DNA of 64,000 nucleotides from an uncultured Candidatus Saccharibacteria bacterium (GCA_964561875.1 CAZLQL010000002.1:23613-87612), one strand, 5' to 3'. Counted from the stretch's first letter, positions 1 through 47,846 are shown. The notes: generated by a model from the sequence alone, not told the origin. Made by a program: numbers and translations.

Positions 1-13
1 AAAGCTTTTAGTA

Positions 14-414
14 GTGCCCCACCACCTTCTCTAAAAGAGGGTACCTAAGGTGTAACTAATTACTACTTAGTTCATAACCGCTTGGTGCCCTACCACCTTC
101 TCTAAAGTAAGGTATCTGAGGTTGAGAAAAACAAGAAATGGAGGGAGGTTGTCTTGTGCCCCACCACCTTCTCTAAAGGAGAGTACCTGAGGTTTCATCC
201 AGTTTTTTTGTATAAAGCTTTTAGTAGTGCCCCACCACCTTCTCTAAAAGAGGGTACCTAAGGTGTAACTAATTACTACTTAGTTCATAACCGCTTGGTG
301 CCCTACCACCTTCTCTAAAAGAGGGTACCTAAGGTGCATTTATTGCACTACTATCCCCTTGTGCCATTGTGCCATTGTGCCCCACCACCTTCTCTAAAGT
401 AAGGTACCTGAGGT
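14..414. CRISPR. CRISPR-like repeat-spacer array (degenerate, possibly orphan/decaying); 6 repeats of 38 bp separated by spacers of 33, 33, 33, 33 and 41 bp; continues upstream beyond the window edge
   Basis: Repeats at 14-51, 85-122, 156-193, 227-264, 298-335 and 377-414 (consensus gtgccccaccaccttctctaaaagagggtacctaaggt). The 5' half is conserved and the 3' half degenerate (3-6 mismatches). Spacer 1 (52-84) equals spacer 4 (265-297). Spacer 2 resembles the trailer at 415-447. Bases 1-13 match the end of spacer 3. No cas genes in the window. Confidence 0.45.
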
Positions 415-713
415 TAGTAAGGAAAAACAAGGAGGGTGGTTTTCTGAGAATTTTCATCTCAGCTTCATGAAGCCATTTCAAGCTTCCGGCCCGGGCACGG
501 GGCATACTAGAGAATCCATCATCCTCTAGCTGCTATTTTAGAGAATGATACCTGGGCTTCCGAAGAAGTGTTAGGTATCCTTCTCAAATCTTTAGTTCTG
601 TCGAGGAACTGACAATAACTTACATTAAATATATAATCTTGTCAAATTATCTTTGCATTTTACTAAGATTTAAGGTAATCTAACTGTTACTTCTTAATAA
701 TTAATTTTAATTT

Positions 714-4576: not shown

Positions 4577-5773
4577 ATGAAAATTAAAAATAGATTTTTT
4601 GTGGTAATGCTTGCATTTTTGATAGTAGGTATTCCACTTGTTTCTTTTGGACAAAATCAAACTATTACTTGTCCTCAAAATTTAATATGTACACCTATAC
4701 CTCCACAACCCGCTGGTTGTCCTGTAGGTTTTACTTGTAAGTTAAATATAGTCGGTACAGATCCTAATGTGGCTGTTCTAATTACTAATACAAGTACATA
4801 TTCACCGGTTGCTAAGTCTGTTTTACCTGATAGTAATGTCTTACTAGGTGTATTTGAAATAACAGATATGAATAAGACATCTACCTTAAAGTCTATATCT
4901 TTTAATATACCAGTTTCAGGGAGATTACCTGCGGATATATTTAATAATCTATACATAAAATCTGGAGACAAAATTGTACCCGCTGATTCTATAAGTTCAA
5001 ATCCTAAATTCTCAAATATCGATAAAATTTTAAGTAGAGATACTACATATACTTTAGCTGTATATGGAGATGTTAAGTCAAACACACCAGATAATACAAA
5101 AGTGTATGTTAGATTGAATGCTGCCAACTCAACAATATATGCCGTTGACTCTGATGGTGTAGCAGCAAAGGTGACTGAGCAGATATCAACATCTAGCACC
5201 ACGACATTTGTGGGTAAGGTTGCTGTATCTAATGTAAGTGCAAAAGCAGAATCAATAGATAATGGAACTTCTCGTCCTAATTTAGCTTCTATCAATATTG
5301 AATTTAATGTAGATAATCTATCTAATAAAGATGTGTTTATAAGTAAGAATCCAAATATAGCACTATCAACATCTTCAACACCAATTAATTCAATTGTGGG
5401 ATTAAAATTCGCTACACCTAATCCTCAAATTTTATCTGGTGACACAGCTGAATCTTATGTGATACCAGCAAATTCTTCAAGAAAATTCTCTTATCTTGGA
5501 GTTATGCTTAGACCAGTAAATGGTGGAGCTGTTTCATTTAAGATATCTCGTCTAAAGTATGGATTTAATTCAAAAAATGGTTTACCAGAACCAGTATTAG
5601 CTACACCAAATACAAATACTGAAAGTAATACTACTTATGATTTTAGAAATATTGGTATTACATATACCCTGGCAACAAGTGACGATGATAATAATATTCT
5701 AGCAACTAGAAATCTTCGCGATAGTTTAGTTGCTTCTGTGTTCGGTTTTGCTAAATTGATATTAGGTTTCTAG
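4577..5773 (+). CDS. secreted hypothetical protein (Cys-rich N-terminal motif)
   Basis: Signal peptide MKIKNRFFVVMLAFLIVGIPLVSFG. CP..C motifs similar to those in the preceding ORF. Low GC, so it is native-looking. Confidence 0.5.
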   Translation: MKIKNRFFVVMLAFLIVGIPLVSFGQNQTITCPQNLICTPIPPQPAGCPVGFTCKLNIVGTDPNVAVLITNTSTYSPVAKSVLPDSNVLLGVFEITDMNKTSTLKSISFNIPVSGRLPADIFNNLYIKSGDKIVPADSISSNPKFSNIDKILSRDTTYTLAVYGDVKSNTPDNTKVYVRLNAANSTIYAVDSDGVAAKVTEQISTSSTTTFVGKVAVSNVSAKAESIDNGTSRPNLASINIEFNVDNLSNKDVFISKNPNIALSTSSTPINSIVGLKFATPNPQILSGDTAESYVIPANSSRKFSYLGVMLRPVNGGAVSFKISRLKYGFNSKNGLPEPVLATPNTNTESNTTYDFRNIGITYTLATSDDDNNILATRNLRDSLVASVFGFAKLILGF

Positions 5774-5932
5774 TACTAACATATATATTTGACTTTAAAA
5801 TGTGTACTGTGCTACTATAGCCAGTACGCATTTTTCTTTGCGTTCATTACTTATTAATTAACAATTTATCTTTAGTCTTGCTTCAACTGGCATTCACGCC
5901 CGATTGAAAAAGGACTAAAGCACTAAAATCAT

Positions 5933-7117
5933 ATGGCAGAATTCAATCGTACAAAGCTTCATGTAAACGTTGGTACAATCGGTCACGTTGACCATGGTAA
6001 GACTACTCTTACTACATCAATTTTGGCTGTTCAAGCTAAGGATGGTCTTGCTCAAAACAAGGCTTATGCTGATATTGCAAAGGGAGGTACAGTAAGAGAT
6101 GCTTCAAAGATCGTTACTATTTCTCTAGCTCACGTAGAATATGAGTCAGCAGCTCGTCACTATGCTCACATAGATGCACCAGGACACGCAGACTACATAA
6201 AGAACATGATTACAGGTGCCGCTCAGATGGACGGTGCTATTCTAGTAGTTTCAGCACAAGATGGAGTTATGCCACAAACAAGAGAGCATATCCTTCTAGC
6301 AAAGCAGGTTGGTGTTCCAAGAGTTGTAGTTTTCCTAAACAAGTGTGATATGGTTCCAGAAAAGGACCTTATAGACCTAGTTGATGAAGAAGTGCGTGAA
6401 CTTCTTACAAAGAACGGTTTTGATGGAAAAAATGCTCCAGTTATACGTGGTTCAGCCCTAAAGGCTCTTGAAGGTGATCCAGAGTGGGTAGCAAAGATCA
6501 AGGAACTTATGAACGCTCTTGATACATATATACCAAACCCAGTTCGTGAAGTTGATAAGCCATTCCTAATGCCTATAGAAGACATCTTCTCAATAGAAGG
6601 TCGTGGAACTGTAGTAACAGGACGTATTGAAAGAGGTGTGATAAAAGTTGGAGAAGAAGTTGAAGTTATAGGTTTCAGAGATACTTCAAAGACAACTATC
6701 ACAGGTATAGAAATGTTCAATAAGTCTCTAAAAGAAGGTATTGCCGGAGACAATGCTGGACTTCTACTAAGAGGTACATCAAAGGATGATGTTACTCGTG
6801 GTATGGTTCTTGCAAAGACAGGATCAGTTAAGCCTCATACAGAATTCGAATCAGAAGTATACATCCTAAAGAAAGAGGAAGGAGGAAGACATACACCATT
6901 CTTCACAGGATATAAGCCTCAGTTCTATATCAGAACAACAGACGTAACAGGAGAAGTAACACTAGCTACTGGAGTAGAAATGGTTATGCCAGGAGATACA
7001 GTTACATTTAAGGTTAAGCTTGTTTCACCAGTTGCCCTAGAAGATAAGCAAAGATTTGCTATTCGTGAAGGAGGTAAGACAGTAGGTGCTGGAGTTATAA
7101 CAAAGATAGTTGCATAA
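5933..7117 (+). CDS. tuf: translation elongation factor Tu
   Basis: [15 protein letters not shown] and NKCD motifs; 394 aa. Confidence 0.95.
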
Positions 7118-36336: not shown

Positions 36337-36389
36337 AAAAAGCTGCTATTAAATATGATATCATATCTAGTAATAAATGTCAAATCTGT

Positions 36390-36787
36390 GGAGATGCTGG
36401 GAGTTGAACCCAGGTGCAGATGAAATCTTATACTGATTCTACATTGTATAGAATGCTTTTGCGTCTATCTATCGACAGACTATTTAACCTTTATACTTTA
36501 AAGCAAACAAAATATATAAAAGCGATTCCCAAGAGATTTGAACTATAAACAGGGAAGAGAATATAGTTCTAGTTTAATTTATATCAATCCACCACTTCTC
36601 TAAACAAAGGAGTGACGACCGTCGCTCGAGCCTAAGCTAAAGCGAAAGCAAGATTTGTACTTCCAAAAGGAGATACAACTGCCTTTGCAACTGATTTTGC
36701 AGTTACGATTTCCGTCAGATTAAAGAGTTAACGGTGCTCTACAATGCACAATATGAAGTACCTCAACTGTCGAGGCCTTTCATCCCC
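36390..36787 (-). ncRNA. ssrA: tmRNA (transfer-messenger RNA)
   Basis: On the minus strand the 5' end reads GGGGATGAAAGGCCTCGAC and the 3' end reads CTGGGTTCAACTCCCAGCATCTCCA. The acceptor stem GGGGATG/CATCTCC pairs. The internal tag ORF ends ...GSTNLAFALA*. It lies next to smpB on the same strand. Confidence 0.7.
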
Positions 36788-39294: not shown

Positions 39295-39368
39295 GCGCGT
39301 GTAGCTCAGTTGGTTAGAGCATCGAGCTTATACCTCGAGGGTCCCTGGTTCGAGTCCAGGCACGCGCA
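39295..39368 (+). tRNA. tRNA-Ile with anticodon UAU
   Basis: Cloverleaf with acceptor GCGCGTG/CACGCGC, anticodon stem TCGAG/CTCGA, loop CTTATAC and T-loop TTCGAGT. Confidence 0.85.
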
Positions 39369-43641: not shown

Positions 43642-43731
43642 GGAACCGTGGTGGAGTGGTTTAACATACCTCTTTGCTAAAGAGGCGAGCCCTTTAAAGG
43701 CTCCGAGGGTTCGAATCCCTCCGGTTCCGCA
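43642..43731 (+). tRNA. tRNA-Ser (anticodon GCU), class II with a long variable arm
   Basis: Acceptor GGAACCG/CGGTTCC, anticodon loop TTGCTAA, variable arm GAGCC-TTTAAA-GGCTC and T-arm GAGGG-TTCGAAT-CCCTC. Confidence 0.85.
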
Positions 43732-46025: not shown

Positions 46026-47846
46026 TTGATATATAATATATGTATGTATCAAAATAAAATTAATCTCGAATCTTTTTTTATTACTAAATATATCCTTGTC
46101 ATTTTTTTATTAATCCTATCTATATTTACCTTTGCAAACGCTCAAACAAATAATATTGGTGCTATGCAGTTGAGTCTTGTATCAAACCACGAGGATTCTA
46201 GTGTTCAAATAAAGATAGATATGACTAAACTTAATTATAAAGACTATTTAAGTCTAGGTGTTTATTGTGTTAAAGAAAATGGAAAAACTGATTTTGCTGT
46301 AAAGAATATATCTCCAGTTTGTGGAAATGTTTTAAATAATATTGAAAATAAGATATATACAACAACAGTCTCAAATCTAAATCCAAGTAGTGAATATGAA
46401 TTTTGTCTAAATGGTACAAGTTCAAAATACACATCAACAGGGAATTTTGAATGTGCAAAGATAAATACACAGTCAAAAAAGTCTTCAGTTGCAATGATAT
46501 ATATAAATTATGATGTTTCTCAAAATACTAGGAATTTGATTAAAAGATATGAAGATAGTATTCGTCTTTCAAATCCAGACGTAAGTATTGTCGAATATTC
46601 ACCACAACAAACCGTATCTAGCAGTGAGCTTTTGGAAAAATTGCGTAATACATACAAGAGTTCAAATTTAAAGTATTTATTAATGATAGGATTTGATCTA
46701 CCCGTACCTATGACTCAGGAGTCTGTATATTTTGCTGATCCTTACAGACATTTGTCTATTGATGAAGTAAATATGAAAAGAGATTTTCTGTATACATTAA
46801 ACAGTGAAATATCTATATCTGTTATAAAGGCTGAAGATGAAAAAGAAATGCAGGATTATTTCAATCGTCTTCACAGATTTTATACAGGTGAATTGAAGTT
46901 TGATAAAAAATTGTTTATTGCTGATGCAATGATACCAAGCGAATCATCGATAAACCTTTCAGATGTTCCAGCTCGATACAATCTAACCTCAACTGATTAT
47001 ATAAACGGTATAACTTCTTATTATGATTCAAAGGATATTGATATAACAAAATGGCAAAATGATTACCAAAATTTACTGTCAAAAAGTCATGAAATAACAA
47101 TAATAAACGCTCATGGTGCAACAAATTTTCATATGCCATGTAGGATGAATGCTTCAAATAATGAACAAGGATGTATCTCAAGTAGTTTTATAAAAAATAC
47201 AAAACCAAATTCTCAATTTATAATAGGTGTTTCATGTAATATAGGTAACTTCATGACCAAAGGTTCACCTATGAATGCTTATATATTTTCTGGAAATGCT
47301 TTGGCTGGATTGGGTGCTGAAGTGCCACTATGGGATCAGAATAGTTATTTAGCAAAGAATCTTTTAAAATCTTTGTCTGAAGGTGTGCGAATAGGGGATT
47401 TGTCTTTAAAAAATGGTTTGGTAGTTATAGGCGATCCATTTTTAAAGATTGGTCTTGTACAAAATTATAAATCAAAAATAGAGATTGAAGGAATAAAAAG
47501 CATGTATCCAGTTTCTGGTGCACCAGGCACAAAGGTGACTTTGACTATTTCAAACCCAGATAATATACCTATCGGTGTCGGCGATTTTAATTTTGGGTCA
47601 TATGGTTTAGTTAATTTCTCAAATTCAAACAATACAATTACTTTTAATGTTCCTAAAGATGCAAAATCTGGATATTATGATGTCGTTTGGTTCAGTTCAA
47701 AAGATTCATATAGTGTTAAATTTAATGTTGTTTCAAGTAATTCTCCTGTATCGATAAACACTTCAGATAAAGAAATGTATAAATTTGATTTCGGTAGTTT
47801 ATTATCAAATATTTCTATAGGATTCGGTAATTTGTTTAATAAGTAG
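46026..47846 (+). CDS. secreted clan-CD (C25/gingipain-like) cysteine peptidase candidate with a C-terminal Ig-like domain
   Basis: Signal peptide. His/Cys dyad context INAHGAT and GVSCNIGNF. A GDPFL motif. The C-terminal domain is paralogous to ORF 3094-4509. Confidence 0.45.
   Translation: MIYNICMYQNKINLESFFITKYILVIFLLILSIFTFANAQTNNIGAMQLSLVSNHEDSSVQIKIDMTKLNYKDYLSLGVYCVKENGKTDFAVKNISPVCGNVLNNIENKIYTTTVSNLNPSSEYEFCLNGTSSKYTSTGNFECAKINTQSKKSSVAMIYINYDVSQNTRNLIKRYEDSIRLSNPDVSIVEYSPQQTVSSSELLEKLRNTYKSSNLKYLLMIGFDLPVPMTQESVYFADPYRHLSIDEVNMKRDFLYTLNSEISISVIKAEDEKEMQDYFNRLHRFYTGELKFDKKLFIADAMIPSESSINLSDVPARYNLTSTDYINGITSYYDSKDIDITKWQNDYQNLLSKSHEITIINAHGATNFHMPCRMNASNNEQGCISSSFIKNTKPNSQFIIGVSCNIGNFMTKGSPMNAYIFSGNALAGLGAEVPLWDQNSYLAKNLLKSLSEGVRIGDLSLKNGLVVIGDPFLKIGLVQNYKSKIEIEGIKSMYPVSGAPGTKVTLTISNPDNIPIGVGDFNFGSYGLVNFSNSNNTITFNVPKDAKSGYYDVVWFSSKDSYSVKFNVVSSNSPVSINTSDKEMYKFDFGSLLSNISIGFGNLFNK

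What the first reader, a model, noticed from the sequence alone, without database searches (positions are those of the whole stretch)
1..447. Edge-truncated CRISPR-like array with degenerate repeats and an internal 213-bp segmental duplication, directly upstream of fusA
The array has six 38-bp repeats at a strict 71-bp period with 33-bp spacers, which is CRISPR-like architecture. Three things are unusual for a live CRISPR array. The 3' halves of the repeats diverge by 3-6 mismatches. Spacer 1 equals spacer 4, and spacer 2 resembles the trailer. Bases 1-13 look like the end of spacer 3, so the whole ~213-bp block is duplicated. The repeat variants keep the ability to form a hairpin, using either ctct/agag or cctt/aagg pairing. 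The window contains no cas genes. This could be a decaying orphan CRISPR, a leader-proximal array whose cas genes lie upstream, or a non-CRISPR hairpin-repeat RNA locus.
Basis: seen in the sequence. Interest (0 to 1): 0.6.

Follow-up and report, generated by a model that had tools for sequence, protein, structure and literature searches.

The report
CRISPR array with its guide-scaffold RNA
The repeats are a real CRISPR array from a rare, very small Cas12f/TnpB-like system of Patescibacteria; it reads on the opposite strand, and its supposed "trailer" is a promoter plus a conserved, folded tracrRNA-like RNA.

Summary
There are six 38-nt repeats: the first 22 nt are conserved, and the rest comes in three variants. 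Spacer 1 equals spacer 4, and spacer 2 resembles the flank. Two corrections: the last interval is 79 nt, not 71, and the duplication ends inside repeat 2/5.

The repeat belongs to a family, GTRCCCYACCACC…AGGGT, with a 69-72 nt period. In metagenomic Patescibacteria-like contigs, arrays of this family lie beside a 390-450 aa TnpB/Cas12f-like nuclease and a short Cas1.

In relatives where the distal flank of the array is assembled, it carries the same module, and the window has it too:
- a TTGACA promoter (645-640, minus strand);
- a ~160-nt five-helix RNA (593-435; leave-one-out profile E = 3.5e-17);
- then the array.

Two single-stranded segments of that RNA, GUGCCC and ACCACC, pair with the last 13 nt of each repeat. 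One of those base pairs covaries across loci. In relatives, terminators lie at the cas-proximal end of the arrays.

The array is therefore transcribed on the minus strand, and the "trailer" is leader plus tracrRNA. Spacer 2 is a relic copy of the RNA's 3' end.

The window contains no cas genes. By analogy they should lie just left of position 1. Close relatives have rpsG-fusA at this site, so the locus is an insertion.

The parts
1..13 (-). Partial spacer, identical to the last 13 nt of spacer 3. The array runs off the window edge here.
14..51 (-). Repeat R1 (variant A).
52..84 (-). Spacer 1 (33 nt), identical to spacer 4.
85..122 (-). Repeat R2 (variant B, T at position 7, T at position 31).
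123..155 (-). "Spacer" 2: a diverged copy of the scaffold tail plus linker (415-447), not a foreign-derived spacer.
   Evidence: score 28 vs 10.5 +/- 3.5, 0/2000 shuffles
156..193 (-). Repeat R3 (variant C).
194..226 (-). Spacer 3 (33 nt).
227..264 (-). Repeat R4, identical to R1.
265..297 (-). Spacer 4, identical to spacer 1.
298..335 (-). Repeat R5: a hybrid with T7 as in R2 and the variant-A part as in R1.
336..376 (-). Spacer 5 (41 nt = 33 + 8). It contains the TTGTGCCA micro-duplication at 359-381.
377..414 (-). Repeat R6 (variant B), the repeat nearest the leader and scaffold.
415..434 (-). Linker between the scaffold tail and the first repeat.
435..593 (-). Conserved tracrRNA-like scaffold. 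In + coordinates: tail GGTGGTTTT 435-443 (RNA AAAACCACC); P5 444-462; P4 469-486; junction 487-506 with the anti-repeat GGGCAC at 493-498 (RNA GUGCCC); P3 507-529; P1/P2 535-590.
   Evidence: leave-one-out nhmmer E = 3.5e-17; folds; cofold; coordinates
594..610 (-). Small hairpin (AGTTCTGTCGAGGAACT) between the promoter and the scaffold. It is probably the 5' end of the transcript and is not conserved in relatives.
617..645 (-). Promoter for scaffold plus array: -35 TTGACA (645->640), 17-nt spacer, -10 TAAGTT (622->617).
   Evidence: TTGACA conserved 54-68 nt upstream of P1 in the six other loci scanned; scan tool confirms it in L182 and L137. The window's -10 matches only 3/6.
609..637 (+). 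Promoter-like site CTGACA-17-TATAAT (11/12) facing fusA. It overlaps the minus-strand promoter and would replace operon transcription lost through the insertion.
688..713 (+). Only stretch upstream of fusA that still matches the rpsG-fusA spacer of close relatives. The right-hand junction of the inserted locus lies between 646 and 688.

Best explanation
Window 1-645 is one arm of a compact type V CRISPR-Cas locus (TnpB/Cas12f-like nuclease plus short Cas1) that is inserted between the ribosomal-protein genes and fusA.

It reads on the minus strand. A sigma-70-type promoter (-35 at 645-640) starts a leftward transcript. Its first ~175 nt fold into a five-helix scaffold (593-435) that ends in a single-stranded tail, AAAACCACC. 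A 20-nt linker follows, then the repeat-spacer units (414 down to 1 and beyond).

Each crRNA keeps the last ~13 nt or more of the repeat, GGUGGU-R-GGGCAC, immediately 5' of its spacer. That handle pairs with two single-stranded scaffold segments: ACCACC in the tail and GUGCCC in the junction. The two segments flank hairpins P4 and P5, so the anti-repeat is bipartite. This matches what I recall of Cas12f guide RNAs. The small nuclease would bind the RNA pair and cut DNA matching the spacer.

This accounts for the pattern of conservation. Repeat positions 1-13 (+ sense) are the handle and are fixed. C/T at position 7 is the single unpaired base between the two duplexes. The variable "3' half" is the upstream part of the repeat, which only needs to keep a hairpin.

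Spacer 2 is a relic of a duplication of [scaffold end + first repeat]. The spacer 1 / spacer 3 repeat is a later unit duplication whose breakpoint lies inside a repeat.

Shown: the array; homology of repeat and scaffold to cas-linked loci; scaffold structure with compensatory changes; promoter conservation; terminators in relatives.

Inferred: transcription, processing, RNA pairing in vivo, DNA targeting, and the presence of cas genes to the left of the window.
For: 1. Repeat family. L137 and L144 were found by a DNA pattern. L182, L183-186, L187-188, L189, L190-191 and L192 were found through effector homologues. Every member shares GTRCCCYACCACC and AGGGT at the same positions and a period of 69-72 nt.

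2. Cas context. The neighbouring proteins are Cas1 (TIGR00287 E = 8e-23; Pfam PF01867) and a TnpB-like protein (NF040570 E = 7e-10). The TnpB-like proteins hit the PADLOC CAS-V-F model Cas12_x1 at up to E = 2e-34. Foldseek matches them to TnpB and AsCas12f at E = 4e-12.

3. Scaffold.
- A profile built from six non-window loci hits the window once, at 593->435 on the minus strand, E = 3.5e-17.
- All seven scaffolds fold on their own into the same architecture. The minus-sense fold is more stable in 6 of 7.
- P3 has distinct sequences in the seven scaffolds, each forming a 7-9 bp stem. Chimeras of two loci average -2.7 against -10.0 kcal/mol, and only 1 of 42 is as stable as the weakest native hairpin.

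4. Polarity.
- An exact TTGACA with a -10-like hexamer at 16-17 nt lies 54-68 nt upstream of P1 in every locus where it could be scanned (for L137).
- In L182 and L137 the scan tool places inward-facing promoters at the distal ends, and hairpin-plus-T-run terminators between array and cas genes.
- The cas-proximal repeat is truncated on the side that would be its 3' end.

5. Pairing.
- Repeat GTG goes with scaffold GGGCAC (window, L137, L144). Repeat GTA goes with GGGTAC (L182, L183, L189, L190).
- In the window, L182 and L183, RNAcofold predicts the two-segment duplex enclosing P4-P5. The gain is -12.7 to -16.9 kcal/mol across the five loci tested.

6. Insertion. Eight contigs from relatives with 97-98% identical EF-G all have rpsL-rpsG-(~70 nt)-fusA. 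Homology to the window ends ~25 nt before the ATG.
Against: - No cas gene is visible, and the source contig could not be retrieved. An orphan arm is therefore possible.
- The window's repeats carry three variants among six copies, whereas most relatives' arrays are uniform within an array.
- Only three distinct ordinary spacers exist.
- There is no full-length protospacer match.
- The window's -10 hexamer, TAAGTT, matches only 3 of 6, and the scan tool did not call it.
- L137 has GCAACA instead of ACCACC in the tail of both arms, although its repeat keeps GGUGGU.
- Swapping handles between loci did not weaken the predicted duplex, because G-U pairs and an alternative register (UGCCCC) compensate. 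The covariation therefore rests on one position and possibly one evolutionary event.
- L137 and L144 have a T-run on the opposite strand at the scaffold's outer end.
- There is no expression data.
Confidence: 0.75

Rival explanations
1. Orphan or decaying arm. The array and scaffold are remnants of such a locus whose nuclease and cas1 have been lost or inactivated. The units now change only by recombination and slippage.
For: - Three repeat variants among six copies, against uniform repeats in most relatives' arrays.
- Duplicated spacers, a leader-derived pseudo-spacer and an 8-nt slippage.
- A weak -10 hexamer.
- No protospacers.
- L190/L191 shows that degenerate versions exist: no Cas1, and crowded partial repeats.
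Against: - The scaffold is intact, with all five helices and a minus-sense MFE of -54.5 kcal/mol.
- The handle is invariant in all six repeats, and the anti-repeat matches it.
- All repeat variation falls at positions that also vary across the family.
- Unit duplications also occur in arrays that do sit next to cas genes, in L189 and L183.
Confidence: 0.3
2. The array is transcribed on the plus strand from a leader to the left of the window, and 415-600 is a trailer, or a separately transcribed plus-strand tracrRNA.
For: - L137 and L144 have a T-run after the outermost scaffold helix on that strand.
- Complementarity between repeat and scaffold exists on either strand.
- The conserved part of the repeat would then follow the spacer, as in type II crRNAs.
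Against: - The conserved TTGACA promoter points the other way in all seven loci.
- Terminators after the array point the other way.
- The minus-sense fold is more stable in 6 of 7 scaffolds.
- From established knowledge, TnpB and Cas12 guides carry the spacer 3' of the scaffold or repeat.
- The truncated terminal repeat lies at the cas-proximal end.
Confidence: 0.1
3. The 213-nt internal duplication is an assembly artefact: a cycle through repeat k-mers at a contig end, or a mix of strain variants. It is not a feature of the genome.
For: - The window starts inside the array, as expected if a contig broke there.
- The copies are identical except for five clustered differences in one repeat.
Against: - The period (71 nt) exceeds the repeat length (38 nt), so usual k-mer sizes would resolve it.
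- The hybrid repeat R5 (T7 with the variant-A part) is what recombination within a repeat would give.
- Similar duplications occur in independent assemblies of relatives.
Confidence: 0.15
4. A non-CRISPR tandem repeat or dispersed hairpin-repeat RNA family.
For: - Repeats are degenerate, one "spacer" resembles the flank, and no cas gene is in view.
- There is no Rfam match.
Against: - Homologous repeats sit next to cas1 and a TnpB-like nuclease in at least six independent contexts.
- There are no singleton copies in the 64-kb window, nor any copy in three public collections.
- Three spacers are unrelated to each other.
Confidence: 0.03

Closest known systems
Type V-F CRISPR-Cas (Cas12f / Cas14) with its tracrRNA
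   Same: - The relatives' effector is 390-450 aa.
- It hits the PADLOC CAS-V-F models (Cas12_x1, E up to 2e-34; Cas12f, 1e-7 to 8e-9).
- It superposes on AsCas12f, OsCas12f and Un1Cas12f1 (Foldseek E = 4e-12 to 9e-8, TM ~0.5).
- The guide is predicted to be a long structured RNA that pairs with the repeat through two separate duplexes around stem-loops. From my own knowledge, solved Cas12f-sgRNA complexes show this arrangement (R:AR-1 and R:AR-2).
   Different: - Sequence profiles reach TnpB (E = 4e-12) but no solved Cas12f.
- Only a short Cas1 (233-252 aa in the loci read) accompanies the effector in the loci seen. No Cas2 or Cas4 was called there.
- The scaffold lies on the far side of the array, under the array's own promoter.
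- Several loci have two inverted arms.
- The hosts look like Patescibacteria, whereas the Cas14 loci first described were, as I recall, from DPANN archaea.
TnpB with its omega/reRNA (IS200/IS605)
   Same: - These are the best structural and profile matches: ISDra2 TnpB at Foldseek E = 4e-12 and profile E = 4e-12; ISFba1 TnpB at Foldseek E = 6e-11.
- Protein size is similar.
- A ~160-nt structured RNA lies directly 5' of the guide.
   Different: - Here there is a multi-spacer array with Cas1, not a single fixed guide at a transposon end.
- No TnpA was seen.
- The RNA lies outside the gene, beyond the array.
Ultracompact "NanoCas-like" type V systems (bioRxiv 10.1101/2025.01.29.635576)
   Same: That preprint describes ~450-aa nucleases related to Cas14a. 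[quoted passage not shown] This is the same arrangement as the segment GUGCCC-P4-P5-ACCACC here.
   Different: - Their element is ~50 nt, whereas this scaffold carries ~90 nt more (P1-P3).
- No sequences were available to compare, so membership is untested.
Type V-C / V-D (Cas12c; Cas12d = CasY)
   Same: - They associate with cas1 only (PMC10691335).
- From my own knowledge, CasY occurs in candidate phyla radiation bacteria, and these types use a short non-coding RNA that pairs with the repeat.
   Different: As I recall, those effectors are ~1000-1300 aa, and CasY arrays have shorter repeats (~26 nt) and spacers (~17-19 nt). Here the effector is ~400 aa, with 38-39 nt repeats and 30-33 nt spacers.

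Membership tests
CRISPR array (generic) | Short direct repeats at a regular period, separated by unrelated spacers. | tested here: met
   - Six 38-nt repeats with periods of 71, 71, 71, 71 and 79 nt; none expected by chance.
- Spacers 1, 3 and 5 are mutually unrelated.
- Spacer 4 duplicates spacer 1, and spacer 2 is leader-derived.
CRISPR array (generic) | cas genes adjacent to the array. | not testable with these tools
   - None in the 64-kb window.
- The array runs off the left edge, and the source contig could not be fetched.
- Homologous arrays do have cas1 and an effector adjacent.
CRISPR array (generic) | Spacers match mobile elements. | tested here: not met
   - No hit in 50,697 phage records.
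- Spacer 1 20-mers are absent from IMG/VR.
- The spacer 5 and spacer 3 20-mers hit viral contigs, but the match stops after 20-21 of 33 nt, which is consistent with chance for AT-rich words.
CRISPR array (generic) | A leader with a promoter next to the first repeat. | tested here: met
   - TTGACA at 645-640 on the minus strand. The same element is present in all the other loci.
- The window's -10 is weak (TAAGTT).
Compact TnpB/Cas12f-like + short Cas1 system (the family of L137, L182, L183, L187, L189, L192) | Repeat GTRCCCYACCACC(N11-12)AGGGT, 38-40 nt long, with a period of 69-72 nt. | tested here: met
   Alignment of 11 repeats. G1 T2 C4-6 A8-C13 G28 T29 are invariant. Most members were retrieved through the protein, not through the repeat.
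Compact TnpB/Cas12f-like + short Cas1 system (the family of L137, L182, L183, L187, L189, L192) | A conserved ~160-nt structured RNA between the promoter and the first repeat. | tested here: met
   - Leave-one-out nhmmer E = 3.5e-17 at 593-435.
- The same five helices, with compensatory changes.
Compact TnpB/Cas12f-like + short Cas1 system (the family of L137, L182, L183, L187, L189, L192) | The scaffold segments GURCCC and ACCACC are complementary to the repeat's last 13 nt. | tested here: met
   - Present in the window at 493-498 and 435-440.
- The R/Y position covaries across seven loci.
- Cofold predicts the duplex.
- Exception: the tail of L137.
Compact TnpB/Cas12f-like + short Cas1 system (the family of L137, L182, L183, L187, L189, L192) | A ~400-aa RuvC nuclease and a short Cas1 are encoded next to the array. 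| not testable with these tools
   They would lie to the left of window position 1. They are not found elsewhere in the window.
Type V-F (Cas12f) as currently defined | The effector belongs to the Cas12f clade. | tested here: inconclusive
   - For the relatives' effectors only: PADLOC V-F models hit, and Foldseek cannot separate TnpB from Cas12f.
- The PDB sequence profile reaches TnpB but not Cas12f.
- No phylogeny was done.
Rfam RNA families | A match at the gathering score. | tested here: not met
   - Only tmRNA and two tRNAs are found in the window.
- Nothing significant in 1-720 (best E = 0.26).
Dispersed repeat family (REP/MITE-like) | Singleton copies scattered through the genome. | tested here: not met
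   - No further copy in the window with up to 3 mismatches.
- No exact copy in three public collections.
- The rest of the source genome was not available.

The most novel reading that the evidence does not exclude
The locus records how a CRISPR array grows out of a TnpB-type guide RNA, in three linked respects.
- The scaffold still sits directly 5' of the guides.
- One array unit (spacer 2 plus repeat 2) is visibly a duplicated copy of the scaffold's 3' end plus the first repeat. The array has therefore expanded by serial duplication of guide-RNA segments rather than only by Cas1.
- In relatives, the twin inverted arms end exactly at the -35 box, on either side of the nuclease and cas1 genes. 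They would mark a still-mobile, transposon-like cassette that has landed inside the str operon, between rpsG and fusA.
Probability: 0.2. Interest if true: 0.8.

Novelty: new variant of a known kind. Interest (0 to 1): 0.55.

Why it matters
- It settles the question asked. The array is a CRISPR array, and all of its oddities have ordinary explanations once the strand is reversed.
- It turns an unannotated 160-nt "trailer" into a candidate tracrRNA with a defined promoter, a structure and pairing rules. No Rfam family covers it.
- It points to a rare family of ~400-aa RNA-guided nucleases: only 15 clusters among 5.8 billion proteins. The family has its own adaptation gene and occurs in Patescibacteria, which have tiny genomes and few known defences. 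Nucleases of this size are sought for genome editing, and knowing the guide architecture is what allows them to be tested.
- The pseudo-spacer derived from the scaffold, and the symmetric arms of the relatives, bear on how arrays arise from transposon guide RNAs.

Tried and rejected
- **Rfam.** Gathering thresholds on the whole window and a permissive search on 1-720 gave nothing relevant.
- **Exact 22-mer of the repeat.** Zero hits in the genome, metagenome and viral collections.
- **Source contig.** Look-ups with the window's EF-G and with its 100% match P0001 returned nothing on record, and the cluster listing carried no name.
- **Three copies of ACCACCTTC in genomes.** This was a poorly chosen probe.
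- **Spacers against phage records and IMG/VR.** Only 20-21 nt partial matches, judged to be chance.
- **The 13-nt inverted match at 533-545 as an anti-repeat.** Rejected: it is one arm of scaffold helix P1 and is conserved as such in relatives. The extra complementarity to the repeat is specific to the window.
- **Plus-strand polarity.** Rejected on promoters, terminators and fold energies.
- **MAFFT plus RNAalifold on the scaffold.** Recovered only P1-P3, because the hairpins vary in length. Replaced by per-sequence folds and a chimera test.
- **Swapping handles between loci.** Not a discriminating control for the pairing.
- **Scaffold 17-mer against IMG/VR.** Three chance hits in 68-72% GC contigs, with no homology.
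- **Literature.** No paper in the held library describes this family. The supplements of PMC10691335 (V-U6 to V-U45) are not held.

Full report
**1. The observation**

The 22-mer GTGCCCYACCACCTTCTCTAAA occurs six times, at 14, 85, 156, 227, 298 and 377. It occurs nowhere else in the 64 kb, even with three mismatches allowed. Shuffled sequence gives none.

The repeat is 38 nt. The intervals are 71, 71, 71, 71 and then 79 nt. The last spacer is 41 nt because TTGTGCCA is tandemly repeated 2.9 times at 359-381.

Positions 1-22 are invariant apart from C/T at position 7. Positions 23-27, 31 and 34 vary, giving three variants: A in R1/R4/R5, B in R2/R6, C in R3.

Spacer 1 equals spacer 4, and bases 1-13 equal the end of spacer 3. 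The stretch 1-122 recurs at 214-335 with five mismatches, all inside R2/R5.

Spacer 2 aligns with the 33 nt after repeat 6, scoring 28 against 10.5 +/- 3.5 for shuffles (0 of 2000). The other spacers are unrelated to each other.

Stop codons interrupt all six reading frames across the array. Rfam has no match.

**2. Context**

EF-G identifies a Patescibacteria (Paceibacteria-like) genome.

Eight contigs from relatives with 97-98% identical EF-G all carry rpsL-rpsG-(~70 nt)-fusA. Their homology to the window stops about 25 nt before the fusA ATG. Neither rpsL nor rpsG is anywhere in the window. Window 1-687 is therefore an insertion, or a rearrangement junction, specific to this genome.

**3. 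Finding relatives**

The exact repeat is absent from the genome, metagenome and viral collections.

A two-copy probe for its first 13 nt found L137 and L144. These have a 39-nt repeat, GTGCCCCACCACCATCCCTTAGTGAGGGTGGTTGGATCC, with a period of 69-72 nt.

In L137, two inverted arrays flank a TnpB-like ORF and a Cas1. That effector has only 15 homologous clusters in 5.8 billion proteins, ranging from 359 to 471 aa.

Where contigs could be read, the effector gene is followed by a short Cas1 of 233-252 aa and bordered by arrays. L190/L191 is a degenerate exception without Cas1.

All these arrays share GTRCCCYACCACC, an AGGGT motif at the same distance, and the same period. Because most of them were reached through the protein, this agreement with the window's repeat is independent of the DNA probe.

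One host (L187) has the same TIM-PGK-HIT gene order as a close relative of the window's organism. PGK is 59% identical and HIT 66%.

**4. The "trailer" is a conserved RNA gene with a promoter**

In the same sense as the window's plus strand, every assembled distal flank reads:

GGTGGTTTTC – hairpin – CTTCAT – hairpin – CGGCCCGGGYACGGGGCATA – hairpin – CTGC..TTTGAGAA – long hairpin – CTTCTCAAATCT.

About 60 nt further on comes TGTCAA.

A profile built from the six non-window sequences hits the window once, at 593->435 on the minus strand, with E = 3.5e-17.

Folded separately, all seven sequences give the same five-helix architecture and a single-stranded 3' tail, AAAACCACC. The minus-sense fold is more stable than its complement in six of the seven.

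The helices covary. P3 has distinct sequences in the seven scaffolds, each forming a 7-9 bp stem. Chimeras of two loci average -2.7 against -10.0 kcal/mol, and only 1 of 42 is as stable as the weakest native hairpin.

**5. Polarity**

On the minus strand, TGTCAA reads TTGACA. It is exact in every locus, lies 54-68 nt upstream of P1, and is followed after 16-17 nt by a TAnnnT hexamer.

The scan tool independently calls these promoters in L182 and L137. It also calls hairpin-plus-T-run terminators between each array and the cas genes, oriented for transcripts that come from the distal end.

The cas-proximal repeat is truncated on what would be its 3' side.

The unit is therefore promoter -> scaffold -> array -> terminator. 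In the window it runs right to left: -35 at 645-640, -10 at 622-617 (TAAGTT, a weak match), scaffold at 593-435, linker at 434-415, and the array from 414 leftwards.

**6. How the RNA would work**

In minus sense each repeat ends GGUGGU-R-GGGYAC, immediately before its spacer. The scaffold has GURCCC in the junction before P4 and ACCACC in the tail after P5.

Loci with GTG repeats have GGGCAC in the scaffold (window, L137, L144). Loci with GTA repeats have GGGTAC (L182, L183, L189, L190).

For the window, L182 and L183, RNAcofold predicts that both segments pair with the handle, leaving one unpaired base between the duplexes and enclosing P4-P5. The gain is -12.7 to -16.9 kcal/mol across the five loci tested.

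The unpaired base is the window's C/T position 7. The 13 invariant nucleotides are the handle.

I recall this bipartite arrangement from Cas12f guide RNAs. A preprint on ~450-aa nucleases describes a tracrRNA with two stem-loops and two repeat-complementary single strands.

The relatives' effectors hit the PADLOC V-F models. They match TnpB by sequence profile, and TnpB and Cas12f equally well by fold.

**7. History of this array**

Spacer 2 plus repeat 2 resemble the scaffold tail, the linker and repeat 6, and both repeats are variant B. The array therefore once duplicated its leader-proximal end.

The identical copies of spacer 3 / R / spacer 1 are a more recent duplication. Its right-hand breakpoint lies inside the repeat. 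R5 combines the T7 of R2 with the variant-A part, and R6 carries the variant-B part.

Duplicated units also occur in L189 and L183.

**8. What remains open**

No cas gene is in the window. By analogy, cas1 and the nuclease should lie just to the left, but an orphan arm cannot be excluded.

Several features hint at low activity:
- repeat heterogeneity;
- few true spacers;
- a weak -10 hexamer;
- no protospacer match.

Other caveats:
- The tail of L137 does not fit the pairing model.
- The handle-swap control was uninformative.
- I could not establish whether the family already has a name. It may be among the V-U6 to V-U45 candidates of PMC10691335 or among proprietary compact systems.

Noticed in passing
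L137 92-199 and 2530-2849; L182 1092-1347 and 3363-3624; L183 7150-7892 and 10041-10437: In three relatives the nuclease and cas1 genes are flanked by two inverted arms (promoter-scaffold-array-terminator). In L182 and L183 the two arms are identical up to the -35 TTGACA plus one or two bases beyond it, and then diverge. This symmetry is transposon-like. The family also sits in a different housekeeping neighbourhood in each genome.
   Followed up: partly
window 533-545 versus repeats (e.g. 27-39): The middle of the window's repeat is 12/13 complementary to one arm of scaffold helix P1, a better match than that helix's own partner. L182 and L183 do not show this. It may be chance, or an alternative pairing.
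   Followed up: partly
L190 2223-2520 (and L191): A degenerate family member. The effector is followed by a 190-aa ORF instead of Cas1. Two full and one partial repeat are crowded together with almost no spacer, yet the scaffold and promoter are intact. It may be a fixed-guide or decaying derivative.
   Followed up: no
window 609-637 (+) and 617-645 (-): A near-consensus promoter facing fusA (CTGACA-17-TATAAT) overlaps the CRISPR promoter on the other strand. Relatives transcribe fusA as part of rpsL-rpsG-fusA, so the insertion appears to have given fusA its own promoter.
   Followed up: partly
L009 3576-3595, L010 4807-4826, L011 13618-13637: The first 20 nt of spacer 5 and the first 21 nt of spacer 3 match IMG/VR contigs exactly, but the rest of each spacer does not match. 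I judged this to be chance for AT-rich words. Under the minus-strand reading, the matched end is the one far from the handle.
   Followed up: yes
window 4577-5933 versus L001 13826-19045: Between the peptidoglycan-binding gene and tuf, relatives carry a 259-aa gene and a ~988-aa gene. The window lacks both, and L004 lacks more. This is a variable island inside the ribosomal-protein region.
   Followed up: no
window 46026-47846: A 606-aa ORF with no Pfam match, in the lowest-GC stretch of the window (29%). A 398-aa ORF at 4577-5773 also has no match.
   Followed up: no
window 36386-36787 (-), 39295-39368 (+), 43642-43729 (+): tmRNA (106.7 bits) and two tRNA genes. These are the only Rfam matches in the window.
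   Followed up: no
L137 208-1689 / P0121; Cas1 ORFs in L137, L182, L183, L187, L189, L192: The family's Cas1 proteins are only 233-252 aa. They align to Cas1 models from about position 80-100 onward, so the N-terminal domain seems to be missing. No Cas2 or Cas4 gene was called next to them.
   Followed up: no
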